This document shows, piece by piece, positions 1 through 5,342 of a DNA stretch of 6,007 bases (its first letter is position 1; each line of letters opens with the position of its first letter). The notes below the pieces were generated by a model. That model saw nothing but the letters and a program-made list of their open reading frames with translations. It made no database searches and had not been told where the DNA came from. The stretch lies in the IMG/VR virus record IMGVR_UViG_2541047728_000008; one strand, written 5' to 3'. The position numbers and the translations under genes were made by a program. Source of the DNA: a virus (Duplodnaviria; Heunggongvirae; Uroviricota; Caudoviricetes).

Positions 1-1239
1 ATGAGCAGGGCAATTCATAGACTTAGCGACACTCTTTTACGAAAATTAAGCGGATCACCAACCACAAAAAACACCTTTTTTAATGATGGTGGCAACCTTA
101 GCGTAAGGCATTCAACCAATGGCCTGTTAACCTGGTATTTCACTTACAGGGCCGGAACAGGCAGGAAGGTAGCCCCTGAACGTCTGAGGCTGGGAAATTA
201 TCCAGATTTGAGCCTGAAAGCAGCCAGGGAAAAAGCGTCGCAGTGTCGCGCCTGGCTTGCTGAGGGTAAAAATCCACGCCATGAGCTTAATCACACCGTA
301 CAGGAAGCGTTATCACCTGTTACGGTTAAGGAAGCGCTCACTTACTGGCTTGAATCGTACGCGAAGGAAAAGCGCACAGATTACGAATCTCTGAAAAGCC
401 GGATCAATACACACATAATCAGCCATATTGGTGCTATGCCGCTGGAAAAATGCGAGCTACGCCACTGGCTGACCTGTTTTGATCAGCTTGCTATGCGTAA
501 TCCGGTATCAGCAGGATTTTTGTTACAGGTATGCAAGCAGGCGCTTAAGTACTGCCGCAAACGACGCTACGCAATTACCAACGTTCTAGATGATATGGTT
601 GTAGGTGATGTTGGGAAAAAAGCAGAAATAAGCGAGCGCGTACTAACAAACAAGGAGCTTGGGGAATTACTACGCGCCCTGGATGAAAAAATTTACACAC
701 CGTACTACAGCGCCCTGATTCGCCTCCTGATTATCTTCGGATGCCGTACCACTGAGCTAAGACGCTCTGAGGTCCAGGAATGGGATTTTAAAGAAATGCT
801 CTGGACTGTGCCGAAAGAACACAGCAAAACGAAGGTAGCAATATTCAGGCCAATACCGGAAGCGATCTTGCCGTTCGTAACGAAGCTGGTGGAGCAGAAC
901 CGACACACGGGCTTATTACTCGGAGAACTGAAAGGGCAATCATCTGTATCAGAGTACGGAAGAACGGCACACAGACGCATTAATCAAGCCCCCTGGACGT
1001 TGCACGACATCCGGCACACGTTTACAACGATGCTGAACGATTTAGGCGTGGATCCTCATGTAGTGGAGCAGCTAACCGCGCACCAGTTGCCAGGAATGCA
1101 ACGAGTCTATAATCACTCCCGTTATCTCGATGCAAAACGTGACGCTCTTAATCTATGGGTTGAGCGTCTCGAGCTTCTCCAGAACAATGATGAAAAAATC
1201 GTTGTTATGACCCCGCGAATTTACTCCCAAAATTCTTGA
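1..1239 (+). CDS. int: Tyrosine site-specific integrase, P4-like family
   Basis: 412-aa ORF starting at window position 1 (ATG), stop TGA at 1237-1239. C-terminal catalytic signature of tyrosine recombinases: Arg in FGCRTTELRR, H-x-x-R in LHDIRHTF, candidate nucleophile Tyr in RVYNHSRY. N-terminal region resembles the arm-binding domain of P4-type integrases. The true start could lie upstream of the window. Confidence 0.9.
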   Translation: MSRAIHRLSDTLLRKLSGSPTTKNTFFNDGGNLSVRHSTNGLLTWYFTYRAGTGRKVAPERLRLGNYPDLSLKAAREKASQCRAWLAEGKNPRHELNHTVQEALSPVTVKEALTYWLESYAKEKRTDYESLKSRINTHIISHIGAMPLEKCELRHWLTCFDQLAMRNPVSAGFLLQVCKQALKYCRKRRYAITNVLDDMVVGDVGKKAEISERVLTNKELGELLRALDEKIYTPYYSALIRLLIIFGCRTTELRRSEVQEWDFKEMLWTVPKEHSKTKVAIFRPIPEAILPFVTKLVEQNRHTGLLLGELKGQSSVSEYGRTAHRRINQAPWTLHDIRHTFTTMLNDLGVDPHVVEQLTAHQLPGMQRVYNHSRYLDAKRDALNLWVERLELLQNNDEKIVVMTPRIYSQNS

Positions 1240-1648: not shown

Positions 1649-1858
1649 ATGCGTGAAATAAATGAAGATCGCGTAATCCGTGAGGATGAATGTCGTAAGT
1701 TAACTGGAGTGTGCCGCACTACACGTTACGAACTGGAGAAAAAAGGGCGCTTTCCGTCACGTCTTAATCTGGGCGGTCGTTCTGTAGGGTGGCTGCTGTC
1801 CGAGGTTATGGAATGGGTTAAAAGCCGGGATCGCATTAATTCAGGTAAGGCAGTGTAA
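1649..1858 (+). CDS. alpA: AlpA-family phage transcriptional regulator (excisionase-like HTH)
   Basis: 69-aa product MREINEDRVIREDECRKLTGVCRTTRYELEKKGRFPSRLNLGGRSVGWLLSEVMEWVKSRDRINSGKAV has the size and hallmarks of AlpA/Xis-type regulators (HTH followed by SVGW...E..EW). ATG at 1649 preferred over the track's GTG at 1562, whose 29-aa extension is AT-rich and non-protein-like. Weak SD (AGG, spacing about 7). Confidence 0.8.
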   Translation: MREINEDRVIREDECRKLTGVCRTTRYELEKKGRFPSRLNLGGRSVGWLLSEVMEWVKSRDRINSGKAV

Positions 1859-1874
1859 AGGGGAGCATATGACA

Positions 1875-1905
1875 CATAAAACAAAGGCGACCTGGGGCGG
1901 TCGCC
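1875..1905 (-). terminator. Rho-independent terminator for leftward transcription (possibly bidirectional)
   Basis: GC-rich 7-bp stem GGCGACC (1886-1892) / GGTCGCC (1899-1905) with 6-nt loop. On the minus strand the stem is followed by TTTGTTTTAT (plus 1875-1885). On the plus strand it follows the alpA stop but has only a weak AGTTTGG tail. Confidence 0.6.
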
Positions 1906-1969
1906 AGTTTGGAAACACTAAACATAAGCATGGCAATGATAGCCTCTATCAGGCTGGTGGGCAATGCTA

Positions 1970-2146
1970 TCAGTCTGTTTCAGTGCGTTGCCATAACTGC
2001 GAAGCTCTCTCCTTTGATGAGTATTCTTTAAGGTACTTCTCAAGGGCAAAAGAACACGGCGCGAATCGTTCTGATTCATGCTCTTTCTTTCTGCGTCGTC
2101 TTTTTCGTGCAGGTGATGTTTTTTCGGTTGATTCTTCGTTGGTCAT
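1970..2146 (-). CDS. Candidate small basic protein (58 aa), in frame with and downstream of the RHH gene
   Basis: Minus-strand ATG at 2146 to TGA at 1970-1972 encodes MTNEESTEKTSPARKRRRRKKEHESERFAPCSFALEKYLKEYSSKERASQLWQRTETD. Weak SD (AGG about 8 nt upstream). Same reading frame as the upstream RHH ORF, separated by a single TAA and 57 nt. Absent from the ORF track (below its length cutoff). Could be a real second cistron, a remnant of a longer ancestral gene, or non-coding. Confidence 0.3.
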   Translation of the reverse strand: MTNEESTEKTSPARKRRRRKKEHESERFAPCSFALEKYLKEYSSKERASQLWQRTETD

Positions 2147-2203
2147 TGTGTGCGCCTGTAAAGCAATGCGCCGGAGTTCCTCACACCACGGCGCTGATAG
2201 TGA

Positions 2204-2383
2204 TTATTCTGATTCTTTGGCCTTGCGACGCTGGCGGCGTTTGATCTCGCCTCGCATGGCTGTAACGATAAATTGCGCAGTGCTCTCGCCTGTTTCTTTT
2301 ACTTGCTCCATAGCCTCAACAACTTCATGCGGGGCGCGAGCCTGTAATTTCTGTGATTTGTTATTGATATGGTCTCTTTCCAT
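2204..2383 (-). CDS. Arc/Mnt-like ribbon-helix-helix (RHH) DNA-binding protein, putative repressor
   Basis: Minus-strand ORF, ATG at 2383 to TAA at 2204-2206, 59 aa: MERDHINNKSQKLQARAPHEVVEAMEQVKETGESTAQFIVTAMRGEIKRRQRRKAKESE. Good SD (AAGGGA, 7-nt spacing). The segment KLQARAPHEVVEAM-EQVKETGESTAQFIVTAMRGEI aligns by eye with the P22 Arc pattern (FNLRWPREVLDLV-RKVAEENGRSVNSEIYQRVMESF): beta-strand with R-x-P, helix A, Gly turn, S/T N-cap, helix B. Divergent from the downstream operon and adjacent to palindromic operators. Not in the ORF track. Confidence 0.65.
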   Translation of the reverse strand: MERDHINNKSQKLQARAPHEVVEAMEQVKETGESTAQFIVTAMRGEIKRRQRRKAKESE

Positions 2384-2403
2384 TTCTGGTTCCCTTTGTG
2401 ATT

Positions 2404-2416
2404 ACTGGAATCCAGT
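2404..2416. promoter_or_regulatory. Operator O1: 13-bp palindrome ACTGGAATCCAGT
   Basis: Perfect 6+1+6 inverted repeat (ACTGGA-A-TCCAGT). Overlaps the candidate -10 (TATACT on minus strand, plus 2414-2419) of the leftward promoter for the RHH gene. Confidence 0.55.
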
Positions 2417-2444
2417 ATACACGAAAAAGACCAAAACAAAACGC

Positions 2445-2474
2445 TTGAAGTGGATTCCACTTAGTGATTATACT
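2445..2474 (+). promoter_or_regulatory. Sigma70-type promoter for the rightward replication operon
   Basis: -35 TTGAAG (2445-2450), 18-bp spacer, -10 TATACT (2469-2474); predicted start near 2481. O2 and O3 overlap both hexamers. Confidence 0.5.
2449..2461. promoter_or_regulatory. Operator O2: 13-bp palindrome AGTGGATTCCACT
   Basis: Same core as O1/O3 (TGGA-W-TCCA) in opposite orientation, with flanking C/G swapped. Overlaps the -35 (TTGAAG, 2445-2450) of the rightward promoter and lies in its spacer. Confidence 0.5.
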
Positions 2475-2484
2475 GGAATCCAGT
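2472..2484. promoter_or_regulatory. Operator O3: 13-bp palindrome ACTGGAATCCAGT (identical to O1)
   Basis: Exact second copy of the O1 13-mer, 68 bp from O1. Overlaps the -10 (TATACT, 2469-2474) and predicted start site of the rightward promoter. Confidence 0.55.
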
Positions 2485-2502
2485 TGAGTGTTTATCACTC
2501 AA
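2484..2502 (+). other. 5'-leader hairpin / palindrome TTGAGTG-TTTAT-CACTCAA
   Basis: 7-bp perfect stem with 5-nt loop immediately downstream of the predicted start site; no U-tract follows, so not a terminator. The 3' arm ends at an in-frame ATG (2502), which it would sequester. Confidence 0.4.
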
Positions 2503-2579
2503 TGCAAACGAGGCTGAAAAGGATTGCCGTCCTTTCGCAGCCTCTGACCACCAACGATAGCGAAAGTATCGAGGTAGCT

Positions 2580-2783
2580 ATGAGAAATCATACCATACAC
2601 CCGCAAGGGCGGGACTCGCACAACCTGAATAAATACATCTGGCGTTTTATCGCCCTGAGCACGGCACAACCGCGCGTGATTACCATCGAGGCCACCAGCG
2701 AACAGGAAGCGCGTCAGCAATCTCCTGATGGCTGCGTGATGGTATTCGCCGCCCGTATTCGTCAGGGGGTGAGTCATGCATAA
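2580..2783 (+). CDS. Small protein (67 aa), first gene of rightward operon; function unknown
   Basis: ATG at 2580 preceded by GAGG (2571-2574) at 5-nt spacing; stop TAA 2781-2783. Product MRNHTIHPQGRDSHNLNKYIWRFIALSTAQPRVITIEATSEQEARQQSPDGCVMVFAARIRQGVSHA. This is the only protein-like part of the track's 304-aa ORF (1869..2783). From memory only, it may resemble small Icd-like proteins of P4-type islands; unverified. Alternative start ATG 2502 (93 aa) lacks an SD. Confidence 0.6.
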   Translation: MRNHTIHPQGRDSHNLNKYIWRFIALSTAQPRVITIEATSEQEARQQSPDGCVMVFAARIRQGVSHA

Positions 2784-3003
2784 AATACCCTTTGATGTTC
2801 TTGTTCATTCTGAAAACGCATTAATCCGCGCAAAGGAAATGGACGCATTACTACTTAAGTTAATTGATGTGCCGGAAAGTGGCGATGAATCTGATTCAAT
2901 GATGTTTTCTGCCGTGCGTACGCTATTAACGCCTGTTATTAATGAATTAAATACAGTGATGGCAATTCACGAGAATAATAAAGCGCAGCACACCGGAGAA
3001 TAA
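2776..3003 (+). CDS. Small acidic protein (75 aa), function unknown
   Basis: ATG 2776 overlaps the upstream stop (2781-2783) by 8 nt, indicating translational coupling; SD AGGGGGTGA upstream. Product is acidic (about 12 D/E versus 6 K/R) and probably helical. Confidence 0.6.
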   Translation: MHKIPFDVLVHSENALIRAKEMDALLLKLIDVPESGDESDSMMFSAVRTLLTPVINELNTVMAIHENNKAQHTGE

Positions 3004-3008
3004 AAAAC

Positions 3009-3308
3009 ATGAAAAATAAAAATTCTGGCGTTACTGCCAGCGGCCCCGCTCGTCCTGAATTTATGAACGGCGATATTTACCGCGATAAATATGGCGGCAT
3101 GGTAACGATTAAAGGCGTGGCAGAACGGCGCATCACCTACCGTCGTGAAGGCTACGAATATGATTGCGTGATGCCTGTTTATCAGTTCGATCGTGATTTT
3201 TCTCTGGTGCAGGCAGTACCGCGTAGCGTGCCCACCAGCAGGGAGAAAGCACGCGCCAATATTCAGGAAATAAAAAAGATGCTTAACGTATTCAGGGGTA
3301 AAAAATGA
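3009..3308 (+). CDS. Small protein (99 aa), function unknown
   Basis: ATG 3009 lies 5 nt after the upstream stop, with GGAGAA SD at 8-nt spacing; stop TGA 3306-3308 overlaps the next start (ATGA). No recognisable motif. Confidence 0.55.
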   Translation: MKNKNSGVTASGPARPEFMNGDIYRDKYGGMVTIKGVAERRITYRREGYEYDCVMPVYQFDRDFSLVQAVPRSVPTSREKARANIQEIKKMLNVFRGKK

Positions 3309-5053
3309 AACTGGCACCGAACGTAAAAAAACAGCCACGCGGAATAAAACACAAAGACACAGAGGTAATTATTTTCGCGGGTAGTGATGCCTGGTCGCAC
3401 GCGAAACAATGGCAGGAGCAGGATGGCCCCGCATCCGGCGATAATGTGCCGCCTGTGTGGCTTGGGCCAAATCAGCTTGCCGAACTTGATGCACTGAAAA
3501 TTGTTCCGGATGGAAAAAAACGCGTAAGGCTGTACCAGGCCGGAGAACTGGATTTGGTGGAGACCAAAAAGATTGGTCAGAAGCTGGCGGCGGCAGATAT
3601 TCAGGACGCAAATTTTTACCCCGAAGGAATGCACGTCCAGAAGTGTGAAAACTGGCGGCGCTATCTGAATGCTGAGCGTGAAAATATTGCCGCAGGGCTT
3701 ACCATGCCGGAGCAGAAAAATACGCAACTGGCACAAATGGCAGACAGTGAGCGCGCACAGATGCTTGCTGGTCGATTTGATGGCGTTTGTGTGCATCCGG
3801 AAAGTGAAATCGTTCACGTATGGCGCGGCGGGGTATGGTGTCCGGTCAGCACAATGGAACTTAGCCGCGAAATGGTGGCGATCTATTCAGAGCACAGGGC
3901 CACTTTCAGCAAGCGCGTAATCAATAACGCCGTGGAAGCGTTAAAAGTTATTGCCGAACCAATGGGCGAGCCGTCCGGCGATTTGCTGCCGTTCGCCAAT
4001 GGTGCGCTTGACCTGAAAACGGGGGAATTTTCCCCGCACACGCCGGAGAACTGGATCACCACGAACAACGGCATTGAGTACACGCCACCAGCACCAGGGG
4101 AGAACATCCGCGATAACGCGCCAAACTTTCATAAATGGCTTGAGCACGCAGCCGGAAAAGACTCGCGCAAGATGATGCGTATATGTGCCGCGCTGTACAT
4201 GATTATGGCGAACCGGTACGACTGGCAGATGTTTATTGAGGCCACCGGAGACGGCGGGAGCGGTAAAAGTACATTCACACACATCGCCAGCCTTCTGGCA
4301 GGGAAACAGAACACGGTGAGCGCGGAGATGACATCGCTTGATGATGCTGGTGGGCGTGCGCAGGTTGTCGGGAGTCGTCTTATCGTCCTGGCAGACCAGC
4401 CGAAATATACAGGCGAAGGCACGGGCATCAAGAAAATCACGGGCGGCGACCCCGTGGAAATCAACCCGAAATATGAAAAGCGTTTCACTACGGTAATCAG
4501 GGCGGTGGTGCTGGCGACCAATAACAACCCGATGATATTCACCGAACGGGCCGGAGGCGTGTCACGTCGTCGGGTTATTTTCCGCTTCGACAATATCGTA
4601 AGCGAGGCAGAAAAAGACAGGGAGCTACCGGAAAAGATTGCGGCTGAAATCCCTGTCATTATCCGCCGCTTGCTGGCGAACTTTGCCGACCCTGAAAAGG
4701 CACGGGCTTTACTCATTGAACAGCGAGACGGTGATGAAGCACTGGCGATAAAGCAGCAGACGGATCCGGTTATTGAGTTTTGCCAGTTCCTGAATTTTCT
4801 GGAGGAAGCGCGCGGCCTGATGATGGGCGGCGGCGGTGACTCTGTCAGGTACACGACCAGAAACAGCCTTTACCGCGTCTATCTGGCGTTTATGGCGTAT
4901 GCAGGCAGGAGCAAACCGCTAAACGTAAATGACTTTGGCAAGGCTATGAAGCCAGCCGCGAAAGTTTACGGACATGAATATATTACGCGGAAAGTTAAGG
5001 GAGTAACGCAGACTAACGCAATAACAACAGACGATTGCGACGCGTTTTTATAA
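3305..5053 (+). CDS. Replication protein: SF3 (D5/P4-alpha C-terminal type) helicase-NTPase, putative primase-helicase
   Basis: 582-aa ORF with SD AGGGGT and ATGA overlap with the upstream gene. Walker A GDGGSGKST (aa 315-323, nt 4247-4273), Walker B-like RLIVLADQ (aa 358-365), SF3 motif C VVLATNNNP (aa 401-409). Upstream conserved block LPFANGALDLKTGEFSPHTPENWITTNNGIEYTP is typical of the D5_N / P4-family primase C-terminal region. Shorter than P4 alpha (about 777 aa), so a full primase domain is not demonstrated. Confidence 0.85.
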   Translation: MKLAPNVKKQPRGIKHKDTEVIIFAGSDAWSHAKQWQEQDGPASGDNVPPVWLGPNQLAELDALKIVPDGKKRVRLYQAGELDLVETKKIGQKLAAADIQDANFYPEGMHVQKCENWRRYLNAERENIAAGLTMPEQKNTQLAQMADSERAQMLAGRFDGVCVHPESEIVHVWRGGVWCPVSTMELSREMVAIYSEHRATFSKRVINNAVEALKVIAEPMGEPSGDLLPFANGALDLKTGEFSPHTPENWITTNNGIEYTPPAPGENIRDNAPNFHKWLEHAAGKDSRKMMRICAALYMIMANRYDWQMFIEATGDGGSGKSTFTHIASLLAGKQNTVSAEMTSLDDAGGRAQVVGSRLIVLADQPKYTGEGTGIKKITGGDPVEINPKYEKRFTTVIRAVVLATNNNPMIFTERAGGVSRRRVIFRFDNIVSEAEKDRELPEKIAAEIPVIIRRLLANFADPEKARALLIEQRDGDEALAIKQQTDPVIEFCQFLNFLEEARGLMMGGGGDSVRYTTRNSLYRVYLAFMAYAGRSKPLNVNDFGKAMKPAAKVYGHEYITRKVKGVTQTNAITTDDCDAFL

Positions 5054-5065
5054 TTTTTGGCAATT

Positions 5066-5298
5066 GCTGTCTACCTTGTCTACCTGATTACATAAAAGTT
5101 GTTTTAATTCAGTGTATTAATTTAGGTAGACAGCTTTTTTTTACTGTCTACAAGCTGTCTACCTTGTCTACCTGTTTTTGTAGCCAGCCGGAGGGATGAG
5201 TAGACATCAGGTAGATAGCGATTTTTTACTGTCTACTTCCATTAAACCCGCGTCATTACTGGCCTGAGCATCTATCAGGTAGACAGAGTAGACAAGGT
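5066..5298. repeat. Iteron array (core TGTCTACC), putative replication origin / helicase-binding region
   Basis: Exact 21-bp direct repeat GCTGTCTACCTTGTCTACCTG at 5066-5086 and 5154-5174, each a tandem dimer of TGTCTACCT. Inverted dimer copy at 5277-5297 (AGGTAGACAGAGTAGACAAGG). Exact 15-bp direct repeat TTTTTTACTGTCTAC at 5137-5151 and 5222-5236. Hexamer GTCTAC at 5069, 5078, 5146, 5157, 5166, 5231 and GTAGAC at 5126, 5200, 5279, 5288 (10 exact copies; about 0.1 expected by chance), plus degenerate copies. AT-rich tract 5087-5123 is a candidate unwinding element. Lies immediately downstream of the helicase gene. Confidence 0.65.
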
Positions 5299-5342
5299 GG
5301 GGGTAGGTCCAAAACTTTTTAAACGAGGGGGTAAAAATAAAA

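What the first reader, a model, noticed from the sequence alone, without database searches (positions are those of the whole stretch)
2204..2383. Hidden Arc/Mnt-like RHH repressor gene masked by a spurious 304-aa ORF
The ORF track shows only a 304-aa plus-strand ORF (1869..2783) whose N-terminal two thirds is Cys/Ser-rich and non-protein-like and runs straight through a terminator and a promoter/operator region. On the opposite strand sits a 59-aa ORF with a good SD and a near-textbook ribbon-helix-helix pattern (beta-strand LQARAP, helix A HEVVEAMEQVKE, Gly turn, helix B STAQFIVTAMRGEI), transcribed divergently from the replication operon. That is the arrangement expected of a master repressor of a satellite or island, and which signal relieves it is unknown.
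Basis: partly seen in the sequence, partly recalled or inferred. Interest (0 to 1): 0.7.

Follow-up and report, generated by a model that had tools for sequence, protein, structure and literature searches.

The report
Repressor gene nested antisense in eta-like ORF

Summary
Window = left end of an E. coli P4/PICI-type satellite island: int, alpA, two small leftward genes, icd-like, DUF4222, D5-type primase, SSB.

Three copies of an 11-13 bp site (2404-2416, 2449-2461, 2472-2484) overlap the predicted divergent promoters. Across about 50 loci from many genera the site core changes together with the RHH beta-strand. In E. coli, RHH plus operators swap as one cassette while AlpA stays identical. 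A specific repressor/immunity role is therefore well supported by inference.

The "spurious" 304-aa ORF is not spurious. It starts 11 nt after the alpA stop and ends in the Icd-like domain. Its frame stays stop-free across the RHH gene and both flanks in most homologous loci, with no amino-acid constraint there. This matches P4 eta/kappa, where translating eta protects read-through transcripts from termination.

No CI-type RNA was found in the window or in 14 related loci scanned. The RHH cassette probably supplies the repressor function instead. Verdict: partly supported; a new variant of a known kind.

The parts
1..1239 (+). tyrosine integrase
   Evidence: Pfam Phage_integrase 7.8e-19 and Arm-DNA-bind_3 9.2e-17; annotated in RefSeq
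1649..1858 (+). alpA (homolog of P4 vis), activator/excisionase-type HTH
   Evidence: Pfam Phage_AlpA 1.7e-16
1869..2783 (+). eta-like long ORF (304 codons). It starts 11 nt after the alpA stop behind AAGGGGAG and shares frame and stop with the icd-like gene. It is kept stop-free but shows no amino-acid constraint outside the Icd-like domain.
   Evidence: P4 counterpart; PMC10111431 section 20
1886..1905 (-). terminator-like hairpin + T-run that would end the leftward RHH/ORF58 transcript
   Evidence: consensus scan only
1970..2146 (-). 58-aa small gene downstream of RHH (hypothetical, WP_172435545.1); not conserved with RHH outside E. coli
   Evidence: PHROG 21027 E=3.4e-12; dN/dS 0.25-0.27 in its own frame vs 0.41-0.47 in the plus frame; no tblastn hit in other genera
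2204..2383 (-). RHH repressor candidate, YlcI/YnfO family, 59 aa
2404..2416 (.). operator O1, overlapping the leftward -10-like TATACT (2419..2414) and the predicted RHH transcript start
2445..2474 (+). rightward early promoter-like site (TTGAAG-18-TATACT), internal to the eta-like ORF; analog of P4 PLE
   Evidence: TTGA[ACG]N at a fixed offset in 41/45 loci
2449..2461 (.). operator O2, abutting the rightward -35
2472..2484 (.). operator O3, overlapping the rightward -10/+1
2580..2783 (+). nested short form: Icd-like (P4 kappa/Kil-like) 67-aa gene with its own SD (GAGG)
   Evidence: NF033153 70.4 bits; P4 ORF 8168-8584 carries the same domain, 73.9 bits; dN/dS 0.23
2776..5053 (+). downstream early/replication genes: hyp75 (start overlaps the icd stop), DUF4222, D5_N/DUF5906/Pox_D5 primase-helicase

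Best explanation
The window carries the regulatory core of a P4/PICI-type phage satellite. Two genes are coded on opposite strands of the same DNA, and both matter.

(1) Leftward gene 2204-2383. It encodes a small ribbon-helix-helix protein of the YlcI/YnfO family. As a dimer or higher oligomer it would bind three direct copies of a GTG-N5-CAC-type site: O1 at 2404-2416, O2 at 2449-2461, O3 at 2472-2484. O2 and O3 cover the -35 and -10/+1 of the rightward early promoter, which drives icd/kil-like, DUF4222 and primase. O1 covers the protein's own promoter. The protein would therefore keep the toxic Icd-like gene and replication silent in the integrated state and autoregulate. This is an inferred immunity repressor. 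RHH plus operators form an exchangeable specificity cassette.

(2) Rightward 304-codon frame 1869-2783. This is the counterpart of P4 eta. It begins just after alpA (P4 vis), runs antisense through the repressor gene and across the operators and promoter, and ends with the Icd-like (kappa/Kil) domain. Selection keeps it stop-free but does not constrain its amino acids. The likely selected property is translation itself. When a helper phage switches on the alpA promoter, ribosomes following RNA polymerase would shield the read-through transcript from Rho-dependent termination and help it past bound repressor. That would bypass repression and, through convergent transcription, damp repressor synthesis.

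Shown here: gene reality, family membership, RHH-like fold, operator repeats and their co-variation with the protein, stop-codon avoidance, homology of the layout to P4.
Inferred: DNA binding, repression, translation-dependent anti-termination, the trigger.
For: RHH gene is real and protein-coding:
- NF041551 72.3 bits; 108 homologs across Enterobacterales.
- Codon-position variability in its frame is pos2 0.222 < pos1 0.296 < pos3 0.523.
- At the shared third positions, RHH two-fold codons (K, E, Q) show only transitions even where the plus codon is four-fold. RHH four-fold sites use all four bases although this changes the plus-frame residue.
- dN/dS is 0.16-0.28 in the RHH frame vs 0.31-0.45 in the plus frame.

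Fold:
- AF2 pLDDT 84.8.
- hhalign to Arc is in register, with K12/Q14/R16 opposite Arc Q9/N11/R13.

Operators:
- Three copies at fixed offsets in 40/49 loci. The core tracks the beta-strand type across genera (13 loci KSQQLNARFP with TGCGATTCA; 10 loci KS[KR]KLEARVP with GTGGCTGAC).
- E. coli L050 has an AlpA identical to that of the near-identical E. coli locus L001 (same WP_001206973.1), whose alpA translates identically to the window's, and 100% identical DNA to the window at 1869-2203. Its RHH is only 73% identical and its operator type is switched.
- 75/80 IMG/VR loci with a nearly invariant Icd-like gene carry at least 12 RHH strand types. The two examined exceptions carry other RHH-like ORFs at the same place.

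Open plus frame:
-.
- Open for 90 nt or more on the alpA side in 30/31 alpA-linked loci vs 3/15 loci without alpA.
- 534 stop-free codons in L053.
- In the intergenic segment, plus-frame dN/dS is 0.87-1.09 and total gap lengths are 24, 24 and 15 nt.

P4 precedent:
- P4 eta starts at the vis stop (ATGA) and has a C-terminal NF033153 domain.
- Mechanism as summarised in PMC10111431 section 20.
- CI-type RNAs (Rfam C4, isrK) are found in P4 but not in the window or in 14 related loci scanned.
Against: - No experimental data exist: no transcript ends, ribosome footprints or binding assays.
- The monomer AF2 model shows the N-terminal segment as weak helix, not strand. A dimer could not be modelled.
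- Operator/protein co-variation could partly reflect physical linkage of neighbouring DNA.
- Some strand types share operators or differ in them (L004 vs L005; L007 vs L030b).
- The -35 of the leftward promoter is poor.
- The open frame is broken in about 17% of RHH-bearing loci, for example the whole KSQLTTVRVP type and the Pectobacterium loci without alpA, so it is not indispensable.
- Stop avoidance inside the RHH gene also holds in loci whose flanks are closed, which the model does not fully explain.
Confidence: 0.68

Rival explanations
1. One reading: the RHH gene is the only real feature, and the 304-aa plus ORF is a chance or shadow ORF with no function.
For: The plus-frame product is Ser/Cys-rich and has no family match outside the Icd-like domain. 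Plus-frame dN/dS is about 1 in the non-overlapped parts. Antisense frames with aligned third positions tend to be poor in stops.
Against: Stop avoidance is far beyond expectation: 0/181 vs 38% in controls. Zero stops in 33/44 upstream flanks, against 1/44 and 0/44 in the other two frames. The pattern holds over 20 unrelated sequence clusters. Openness correlates with the presence of alpA. L053 has 534 open codons. P4 eta is a homologous layout with a described function.
Confidence: 0.08
2. Both genes are real, but the long plus ORF encodes a functional Eta/Ash-type protein whose N-terminal part has its own activity, rather than being merely a translated spacer.
For: 1246 database proteins cover the N-terminal extension, and many are annotated as 300-400 aa Icd-like or 'ash family' proteins. 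P4 eta is discussed as a protein gene in PMC10111431. dN/dS is 0.41-0.71 in segment 1869-1969.
Against: There is no amino-acid constraint in the intergenic and spacer segments (dN/dS 0.86-1.21). The plus residue changes freely at RHH four-fold sites. Sequence and length of the extension differ wildly between loci (128-568 codons). No domain was detected.
Confidence: 0.15
3. The RHH protein is the antitoxin of a type II toxin-antitoxin pair with the downstream 58-aa ORF (1970-2146), not an island repressor.
Against: ORF58 is absent next to RHH in all 46 non-E. coli loci. ORF58 is highly charged with no toxin family match. RHH position and operators are instead fixed relative to the icd/primase promoter.
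Confidence: 0.04
4. The plus-strand ORF is the only real gene, and the 59-aa RHH ORF is its antisense shadow.
For: Some pipelines annotate only the long plus ORF. The two frames share third positions, so conservation of one mimics conservation of the other.
Against: Amino-acid-level constraint lies in the minus frame. The model is confident and RHH-like. The curated family also includes YlcI of prophage DLP12, which sits in a different context. RHH is retained in loci where the plus frame is closed.
Confidence: 0.03

Closest known systems
Satellite phage P4 immunity/early region (vis - eta/kappa(Kil) - CI RNA - alpha primase)
   Same: An alpA/vis homolog is followed at once by a long ORF that ends in an Icd-like domain (NF033153 in both). 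A shorter nested gene shares frame and stop. A promoter lies inside the long ORF. A primase gene lies downstream. In P4, translating eta lets late read-through transcripts escape termination (PMC10111431).
   Different: P4 immunity is an RNA: Rfam C4 at 8420-8507 and isrK at 8615-8692. The window and 14 related loci scanned have neither. Instead they carry a protein gene (RHH) on the opposite strand inside the eta-like frame, plus three operators. Sequence similarity of the Icd-like parts is weak pairwise (28% over 47 aa).
Phage P22 immI repressors Arc and Mnt (ribbon-helix-helix)
   Same: Small RHH proteins with an R-x-P-x-E-V strand-to-helix motif. They repress a promoter through operators that overlap it. 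Mnt is transcribed divergently from its target. hhalign places the window protein in register with Arc.
   Different: Similarity is below any family threshold (P=1.3e-3, probability 18%; Mnt P=0.13). There is no Pfam Arc or RHH_1 hit. The target operon and genetic context differ. The operators here are three direct repeats.
YlcI/YnfO family (NCBIfam NF041551; Pfam DUF3950) of E. coli K-12 cryptic prophages DLP12 and Qin
   Same: The window protein passes the curated model (72.3 bits vs cut-off 30). YlcI shows the same strand-helix-turn-helix pattern.
   Different: YlcI lies next to the terminase gene nohD of a lambdoid prophage, not between alpA and a primase. Pairwise similarity is marginal. 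No function for the family was found in the literature searched.
Stl/Rpr master repressors of Gram-positive PICIs (SaPIs)
   Same: A repressor divergent from the excision/replication operon would keep the island silent.
   Different: No family relationship to Stl/Rpr was detected. Those are relieved by helper anti-repressor proteins. [quoted passage not shown]
Phage P1 immI (c4 RNA - icd - ant)
   Same: An icd-type gene is the first gene of a tightly repressed operon.
   Different: In P1 the regulator is an antisense RNA and no RHH gene is involved (my own knowledge of P1, not tested here). No C4 match in the window.

Membership tests
YlcI/YnfO family (NF041551) | Score above the curated cut-off of the NCBIfam model | tested here: met
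   72.3 bits, E=2.4e-20, cut-off 30, residues 9-50 on profile 1-42/42; PGAP gives the same name
Ribbon-helix-helix (MetJ/Arc) superfamily | Fold: N-terminal strand, helix A, short Gly-containing turn, helix B | tested here: inconclusive
Ribbon-helix-helix (MetJ/Arc) superfamily | Obligate dimer forming a two-stranded antiparallel ribbon | not testable with these tools
Ribbon-helix-helix (MetJ/Arc) superfamily | Sequence-specific binding to repeated operator sites through ribbon side chains | tested here: inconclusive
   Three repeated sites are present, and their core co-varies with strand residues across genera and in cassette swaps. No binding assay was possible.
Arc / Mnt families (Pfam Arc, RHH_1 etc.) | Significant match to the family HMM | tested here: not met
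   No Pfam RHH model reaches threshold. There are only weak PSK_trans_fac, CB_ParB_C and HicB hits. hhalign to Arc gives probability 18%.
P4 eta/kappa nested-gene arrangement | C-terminal Icd-like (Kil/kappa) domain | tested here: met
   NF033153 70.4 bits in the window and 73.9 bits in the P4 ORF
P4 eta/kappa nested-gene arrangement | Long in-frame N-terminal extension that starts next to the stop of the alpA/vis gene | tested here: met
   Window ATG 1869 is 11 nt after the alpA stop and follows AAGGGGAG. In P4 the ATG overlaps the vis TGA. The same holds in many loci.
P4 eta/kappa nested-gene arrangement | Constitutive promoter inside the long ORF, upstream of the short form | tested here: inconclusive
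   Consensus match TTGAAG-18-TATACT at 2445-2474. The -35-like element is at a fixed offset in 41/45 loci. There are no transcript data.
P4 eta/kappa nested-gene arrangement | CI (C4-type) immunity RNA and seqA (isrK-type) target within the long ORF | tested here: not met
   No Rfam match at E<=1 in the window. None at gathering score in 14 related loci, while P4 gives C4 74.9 bits and isrK 60.8 bits.
P4 eta/kappa nested-gene arrangement | Translation of the long ORF prevents premature (Rho-dependent) termination | not testable with these tools
   Only indirect support: selection against stops without amino-acid constraint
Gram-negative PICI / P4-like satellite | int, alpA and primase co-oriented, with small island size | tested here: met
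   The same synteny is seen in more than 30 loci. The late/packaging part of the island lies outside the window and was not examined.

The most novel reading that the evidence does not exclude
A two-strand 'immunity cassette'. A ribbon-helix-helix repressor gene lies entirely antisense inside an eta-like reading frame whose only selected property is that ribosomes can run through it. Helper-induced alpA transcripts are thereby carried, ribosome-shielded, through the repressor gene and its occupied operators. This would give promoter bypass, protection from Rho and convergent silencing of the repressor in a single step. The RHH-operator unit is swapped between otherwise identical satellites, creating a dozen or more immunity specificities. 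It would also supply the 'missing' repressor of Gram-negative PICI-type islands.
Probability: 0.4. Interest if true: 0.78.

Novelty: new variant of a known kind. Interest (0 to 1): 0.62.

Why it matters
Fillol-Salom et al. 2018 state that whether Gram-negative PICI-type satellites have a global repressor is unclear (PMC6092414). This locus offers a concrete, widespread candidate with identifiable operators and natural specificity variants.

It also gives an unusually clean natural case of antisense-overlapping coding. One strand is selected for its protein. The other is selected only to stay translatable. This can be tested directly with single synonymous mutations.

Practically, annotation pipelines flip between two incompatible gene models for the same DNA: RHH plus a short Icd gene, or one long 'Icd-like' protein. 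Both models are partly right.

Tried and rejected
- Sequence searches of the 59-aa protein and of its 40-member profile against PDB chains gave only chance hits (LptE, S20).
- Foldseek against PDB found nothing.
- tblastn of the protein against 50,697 phage records found nothing at E<=1e-3.
- A literature search for YlcI/YnfO found no functional study.
- Forti et al. 1999 on P4 eta/kappa is not held. Its content was taken second-hand from PMC10111431.
- The classical synonymous/non-synonymous frame test was rejected as the main criterion because the two frames share third positions. Third-position changes are mostly silent in both frames (21 vs 34 non-synonymous states of 242).
- CI/C4-type RNA as the immunity factor was considered and rejected.
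- AlpA as the protein that reads the operators was rejected because identical AlpA co-occurs with different operator types.
- The toxin-antitoxin reading was rejected because ORF58 is not conserved with RHH.

Full report
**What the window is.** The ORF list and family scans give this map:
- tyrosine integrase, 1-1239 (+)
- AlpA-family regulator, 1649-1858 (+)
- two small leftward ORFs, 1970-2146 and 2204-2383
- Icd-like gene, 2580-2783 (+)
- a 75-aa ORF whose start overlaps the Icd stop
- DUF4222, then a D5_N/DUF5906/Pox_D5 primase-helicase at 3305-5053
- an 85-aa ORF and SSB

An almost identical stretch lies beside cspD/yljB in E. coli SY033, followed there by a PerC-family gene. This is the integration, regulation and replication part of a P4/PICI-type phage satellite. 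The same int-alpA...RHH<>icd...primase order recurs in more than 30 loci from Escherichia, Serratia, Xenorhabdus, Proteus, Morganella, Yersinia, Pectobacterium and others.

**Checking the observation.** The 59-aa ORF is not hidden. PGAP annotates it as 'YlcI/YnfO family protein' WP_000439004.1 and annotates the 58-aa ORF downstream as hypothetical. The identical protein is on record from at least 1000 contigs. It scores 72.3 bits against NCBIfam NF041551 (cut-off 30) and E=3.4e-27 against PHROG 949, a family of unknown function. I found no functional paper on YlcI/YnfO.

**Is it a ribbon-helix-helix protein?**
- No Pfam RHH model reaches threshold. The weak hits that do appear among 40 homologs go to RHH families: PSK_trans_fac in 8 members, CB_ParB_C in 4, HicB in 1.
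- A 40-sequence alignment gives an AlphaFold model with mean pLDDT 84.8. It has helices at 19-28 and 35-58 and a conserved G-E-S turn. The N-terminal segment is modelled only weakly, as expected for a monomer of a fold whose strand forms only in the dimer.
- A profile comparison with Arc (sequence from my own memory) aligns K9-G32 with Arc K6-N29 in register at P=1.3e-3. This places K12/Q14/R16 opposite the DNA-reading Arc residues Q9/N11/R13.
- YlcI of prophage DLP12 shows the same pattern.

I take the RHH fold as likely but not proven. A dimer could not be modelled.

**Which strand is under protein-level selection?** The third codon positions of the two overlapping frames coincide (minus pos1 = plus pos2, minus pos2 = plus pos1). 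Three other tests do discriminate.
1. Variability is lowest at the second position of the RHH frame: 0.222, against 0.296 at pos1 and 0.523 at pos3.
2. Where the RHH codon is two-fold (Lys, Glu, Gln) and the plus codon four-fold, only transitions occur. Where the RHH codon is four-fold and the plus codon two-fold, all four bases occur and the plus residue flips freely (F/L, K/N, I/M, C/W).
3. In E. coli pairs, dN/dS is 0.16-0.28 in the RHH frame and 0.31-0.45 in the plus frame. The Icd-like gene serves as a control and gives 0.23 in its own frame and about 0.5 in the antisense frame.

The 59-aa gene is therefore the protein under amino-acid constraint.

**The plus ORF is nevertheless not spurious.** In this frame relationship, an antisense stop can arise only from a sense codon ending in T before CAN, or ending in T/C before TAN.
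- Among 46 distinct RHH genes, none of 181 T-capable codons preceding CAN ends in T. The figure is 38% in 216 long ORFs from the same loci.
- 44 of 46 genes have an open antisense frame, against 32-47% expected from synonymous resampling.
- From the listing I counted four-fold sites with at least three bases observed. About 33 of 37 such sites not followed by CA include T, against 0 of 4 followed by CA.
- The same frame stays open outside the gene. The 150 nt upstream of the RHH ATG (the promoter/operator region) has no stop in 33 of 44 loci (mean 0.52), while the other two frames average 4.5 and 4.3 stops. The 90 nt downstream has none in 31 of 44. These flanks fall into 20 unrelated sequence clusters.
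- Open windows of 200-413 codons are common. One E. coli island with extra inserted DNA keeps 534 codons open from the alpA stop to the Icd stop.
- Openness goes with alpA. The frame is open for at least 90 nt on the alpA side in 30/31 loci with alpA upstream, and in 3/15 without it.
- In the segments not overlapped by a leftward gene, plus-frame dN/dS is 0.86-1.21. Total gap lengths in the intergenic segment are 24, 24 and 15 nt, all multiples of three.

The frame is kept translatable, but its amino acids are not conserved. Its Cys richness is a by-product: TGY codons lie opposite the repressor's CAN codons.

**The P4 precedent.**
- The ORF that the P4 record still labels 'cI gene product' carries the same Icd-like domain at its C-terminus (NF033153, 73.9 bits).
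- Its frame is open back to an ATG that overlaps the TGA of vis, the P4 AlpA homolog.
- Mageeney et al. 2023 (PMC10111431, section 20) summarise the P4 work as follows. A constitutive promoter lies inside eta. The truncated form (Kil) is translated only after read-through. [quoted passage not shown] Translating eta prevents termination.
- The window reproduces this layout. The ATG at 1869 is 11 nt after the alpA stop and follows AAGGGGAG. A promoter-like TTGAAG-18-TATACT lies at 2445-2474 inside the ORF. A nested 67-aa Icd-like gene has its own SD and shares frame and stop.
- Many database records annotate the long form as a 300-400 aa 'Icd-like' or 'ash family' protein. PGAP elsewhere marks a plus-strand pseudogene up to the RHH gene. 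The pipelines thus alternate between two gene models.

**What differs from P4.** P4 immunity is the CI RNA. Rfam finds C4 and isrK in P4 but not in the window at E<=1. It also finds neither at gathering score in 14 related loci: 9 genome loci with the RHH gene, plus 5 RHH-bearing and 5 apparently RHH-less IMG/VR loci. Instead, an RHH gene lies antisense inside the eta-like frame.

Of 80 IMG/VR loci whose Icd-like protein is 91-99% identical to the window's, 75 have such a gene upstream, with at least 12 different strand sequences. The two 'exceptions' I examined carry other RHH-like ORFs at the same spot: one is YlcI-like, the other has an FHMRIVPELKEQF motif.

**Operators.** An unbiased search for the most repeated 9-mer in the 125 nt upstream of the RHH ATG finds three copies at fixed offsets (+22/23, +67/68, +90 to +103) in 40 of 49 loci. 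In the window these are 2404-2416, 2449-2461 and 2472-2484.

The sites have conserved GTG...CAC-type ends and a variable centre that is the same in all three sites of a locus. The centre follows the strand sequence of the neighbouring RHH protein across genera:
- KSQQLNARFP with TGCGATTCA (E. coli, Pectobacterium, Citrobacter, Proteus, Morganella)
- KS[KR]KLEARVP with GTGGCTGAC
- KSKRFDVRVP with TGTCCGACA (Pectobacterium, Yersinia)
- KSQKLQARAP with TGGAATCCA/GTGGAGTCC

There are a few exceptions (L004 vs L005; L007 vs L030b).

In E. coli 23CRST038 the DNA is 100% identical to the window over 1869-2203 and 94% over icd, and AlpA is the same protein as in the near-identical locus L001 (same accession; L001's alpA translates identically to the window's). 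The RHH gene, however, is 73% identical and the intergenic region 63%, with the operator type switched. That is a cassette swap. It excludes AlpA as the reader of the sites.

A leftward -10-like GTATACTG lies at a fixed offset in 38/45 loci and overlaps O1. A rightward -35-like TTGA[ACG]N lies at a fixed offset in 41/45 loci and abuts O2. O3 covers the rightward -10/+1.

**Mechanism proposed (inferred).** In the integrated state the RHH protein occupies O1-O3. This shuts the early promoter, so the toxic Icd/Kil-like gene and the replication genes stay off, and it limits the protein's own synthesis. For E. coli PICIs, helper phages induce the alpA promoter and AlpA activates itself (PMC6092414, PMC11773190). 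Transcripts from that promoter would continue into the eta-like frame. Because that frame is translated end to end, ribosomes would shield the RNA from Rho and help polymerase through bound repressor. Transcription converging on the repressor gene should lower its expression. Repression would thus be bypassed rather than lifted. The frame is broken in about one in six RHH-bearing loci, so this route is not universal.

**Verdict.** It was wrong that the gene is unannotated and wrong that the long ORF is noise. The element is best described as a P4-type immunity/early region in which an exchangeable RHH-operator cassette, nested antisense in the eta-like frame, appears to supply the repressor function. 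I found no description of this arrangement in the papers searched.

Noticed in passing
window 1970-2146 (-): A second small leftward gene of 58 aa, very basic (RKRRRRKK), annotated as hypothetical WP_172435545.1, PHROG 21027. It also lies antisense inside the eta-like frame with third positions aligned. dN/dS is lower in its own frame (0.25-0.27 vs 0.41-0.47). It was not found next to RHH outside E. coli.
   Followed up: partly
window 2484-2502: Hairpin TTGAGTG-TTTAT-CACTCAA directly after operator O3, at the predicted 5' end of the rightward transcript. A hairpin sits at the same offset (about +100 from the RHH ATG) in most loci, with different stem sequences (TGAATG/CATTCA, CCTTGA/TCAAGG). 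In some operator types it overlaps O3 itself, so it could be RNA structure or DNA symmetry.
   Followed up: partly
window 2554-2570; L004, L012-L014, L024, L034 at about +170 from the RHH ATG: A stem-loop just upstream of the icd-like start (CGATA-GCGAAAG-TATCG, followed by GAGG). In Xenorhabdus and other loci the loop itself carries GGAG (CATTA-TCGGAGC-TAATG). This looks like a conserved ribosome-binding-site hairpin. It might be a target of an unrecognised antisense RNA.
   Followed up: no
window about 5060-5300: A dense set of direct and inverted copies of GTCTACC/GGTAGAC(AG) in the non-coding stretch after the primase gene. These are probably the iterons of the island's replication origin.
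   Followed up: no
L053 (E. coli JNEC-KY175) 1201-2805: About 700 extra bases between alpA and RHH carry two more annotated leftward small genes and a duplicated ...KAMRRS.SHHGAD... segment. The rightward frame still stays open for 534 codons.
   Followed up: partly
window 1869-2783; proteins P0109-P0228; L052 1039-1485: Public annotation is inconsistent for the same DNA. Some records give one 300-400 aa 'Icd-like' or 'ash family' protein. Others give RHH plus a short Icd-like gene. One gives a plus-strand pseudogene that stops at the RHH gene.
   Followed up: yes
L055, L067, L072-L078, L107, L123, L130 (IMG/VR): All 12 loci with the KSQLTTVRVP strand type have the eta-like frame closed about 36 codons upstream of the icd-like start, although alpA is present in most of them. 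This is a lineage in which the read-through frame appears to have been lost or split.
   Followed up: no
L006 7519-7587: Rfam 'int-alpA RNA' (RF02996, 42 bits) matches between int and alpA in a Xenorhabdus locus. No such match was found in the window's int-alpA spacer (1240-1648).
   Followed up: no
L049 8252-8446 (E. coli K-12 ylcI): The antisense frame with aligned third positions is also stop-free in ylcI of prophage DLP12 (stops per frame 5, 0, 5), in a context without alpA or icd. This is a single case and may be chance.
   Followed up: no
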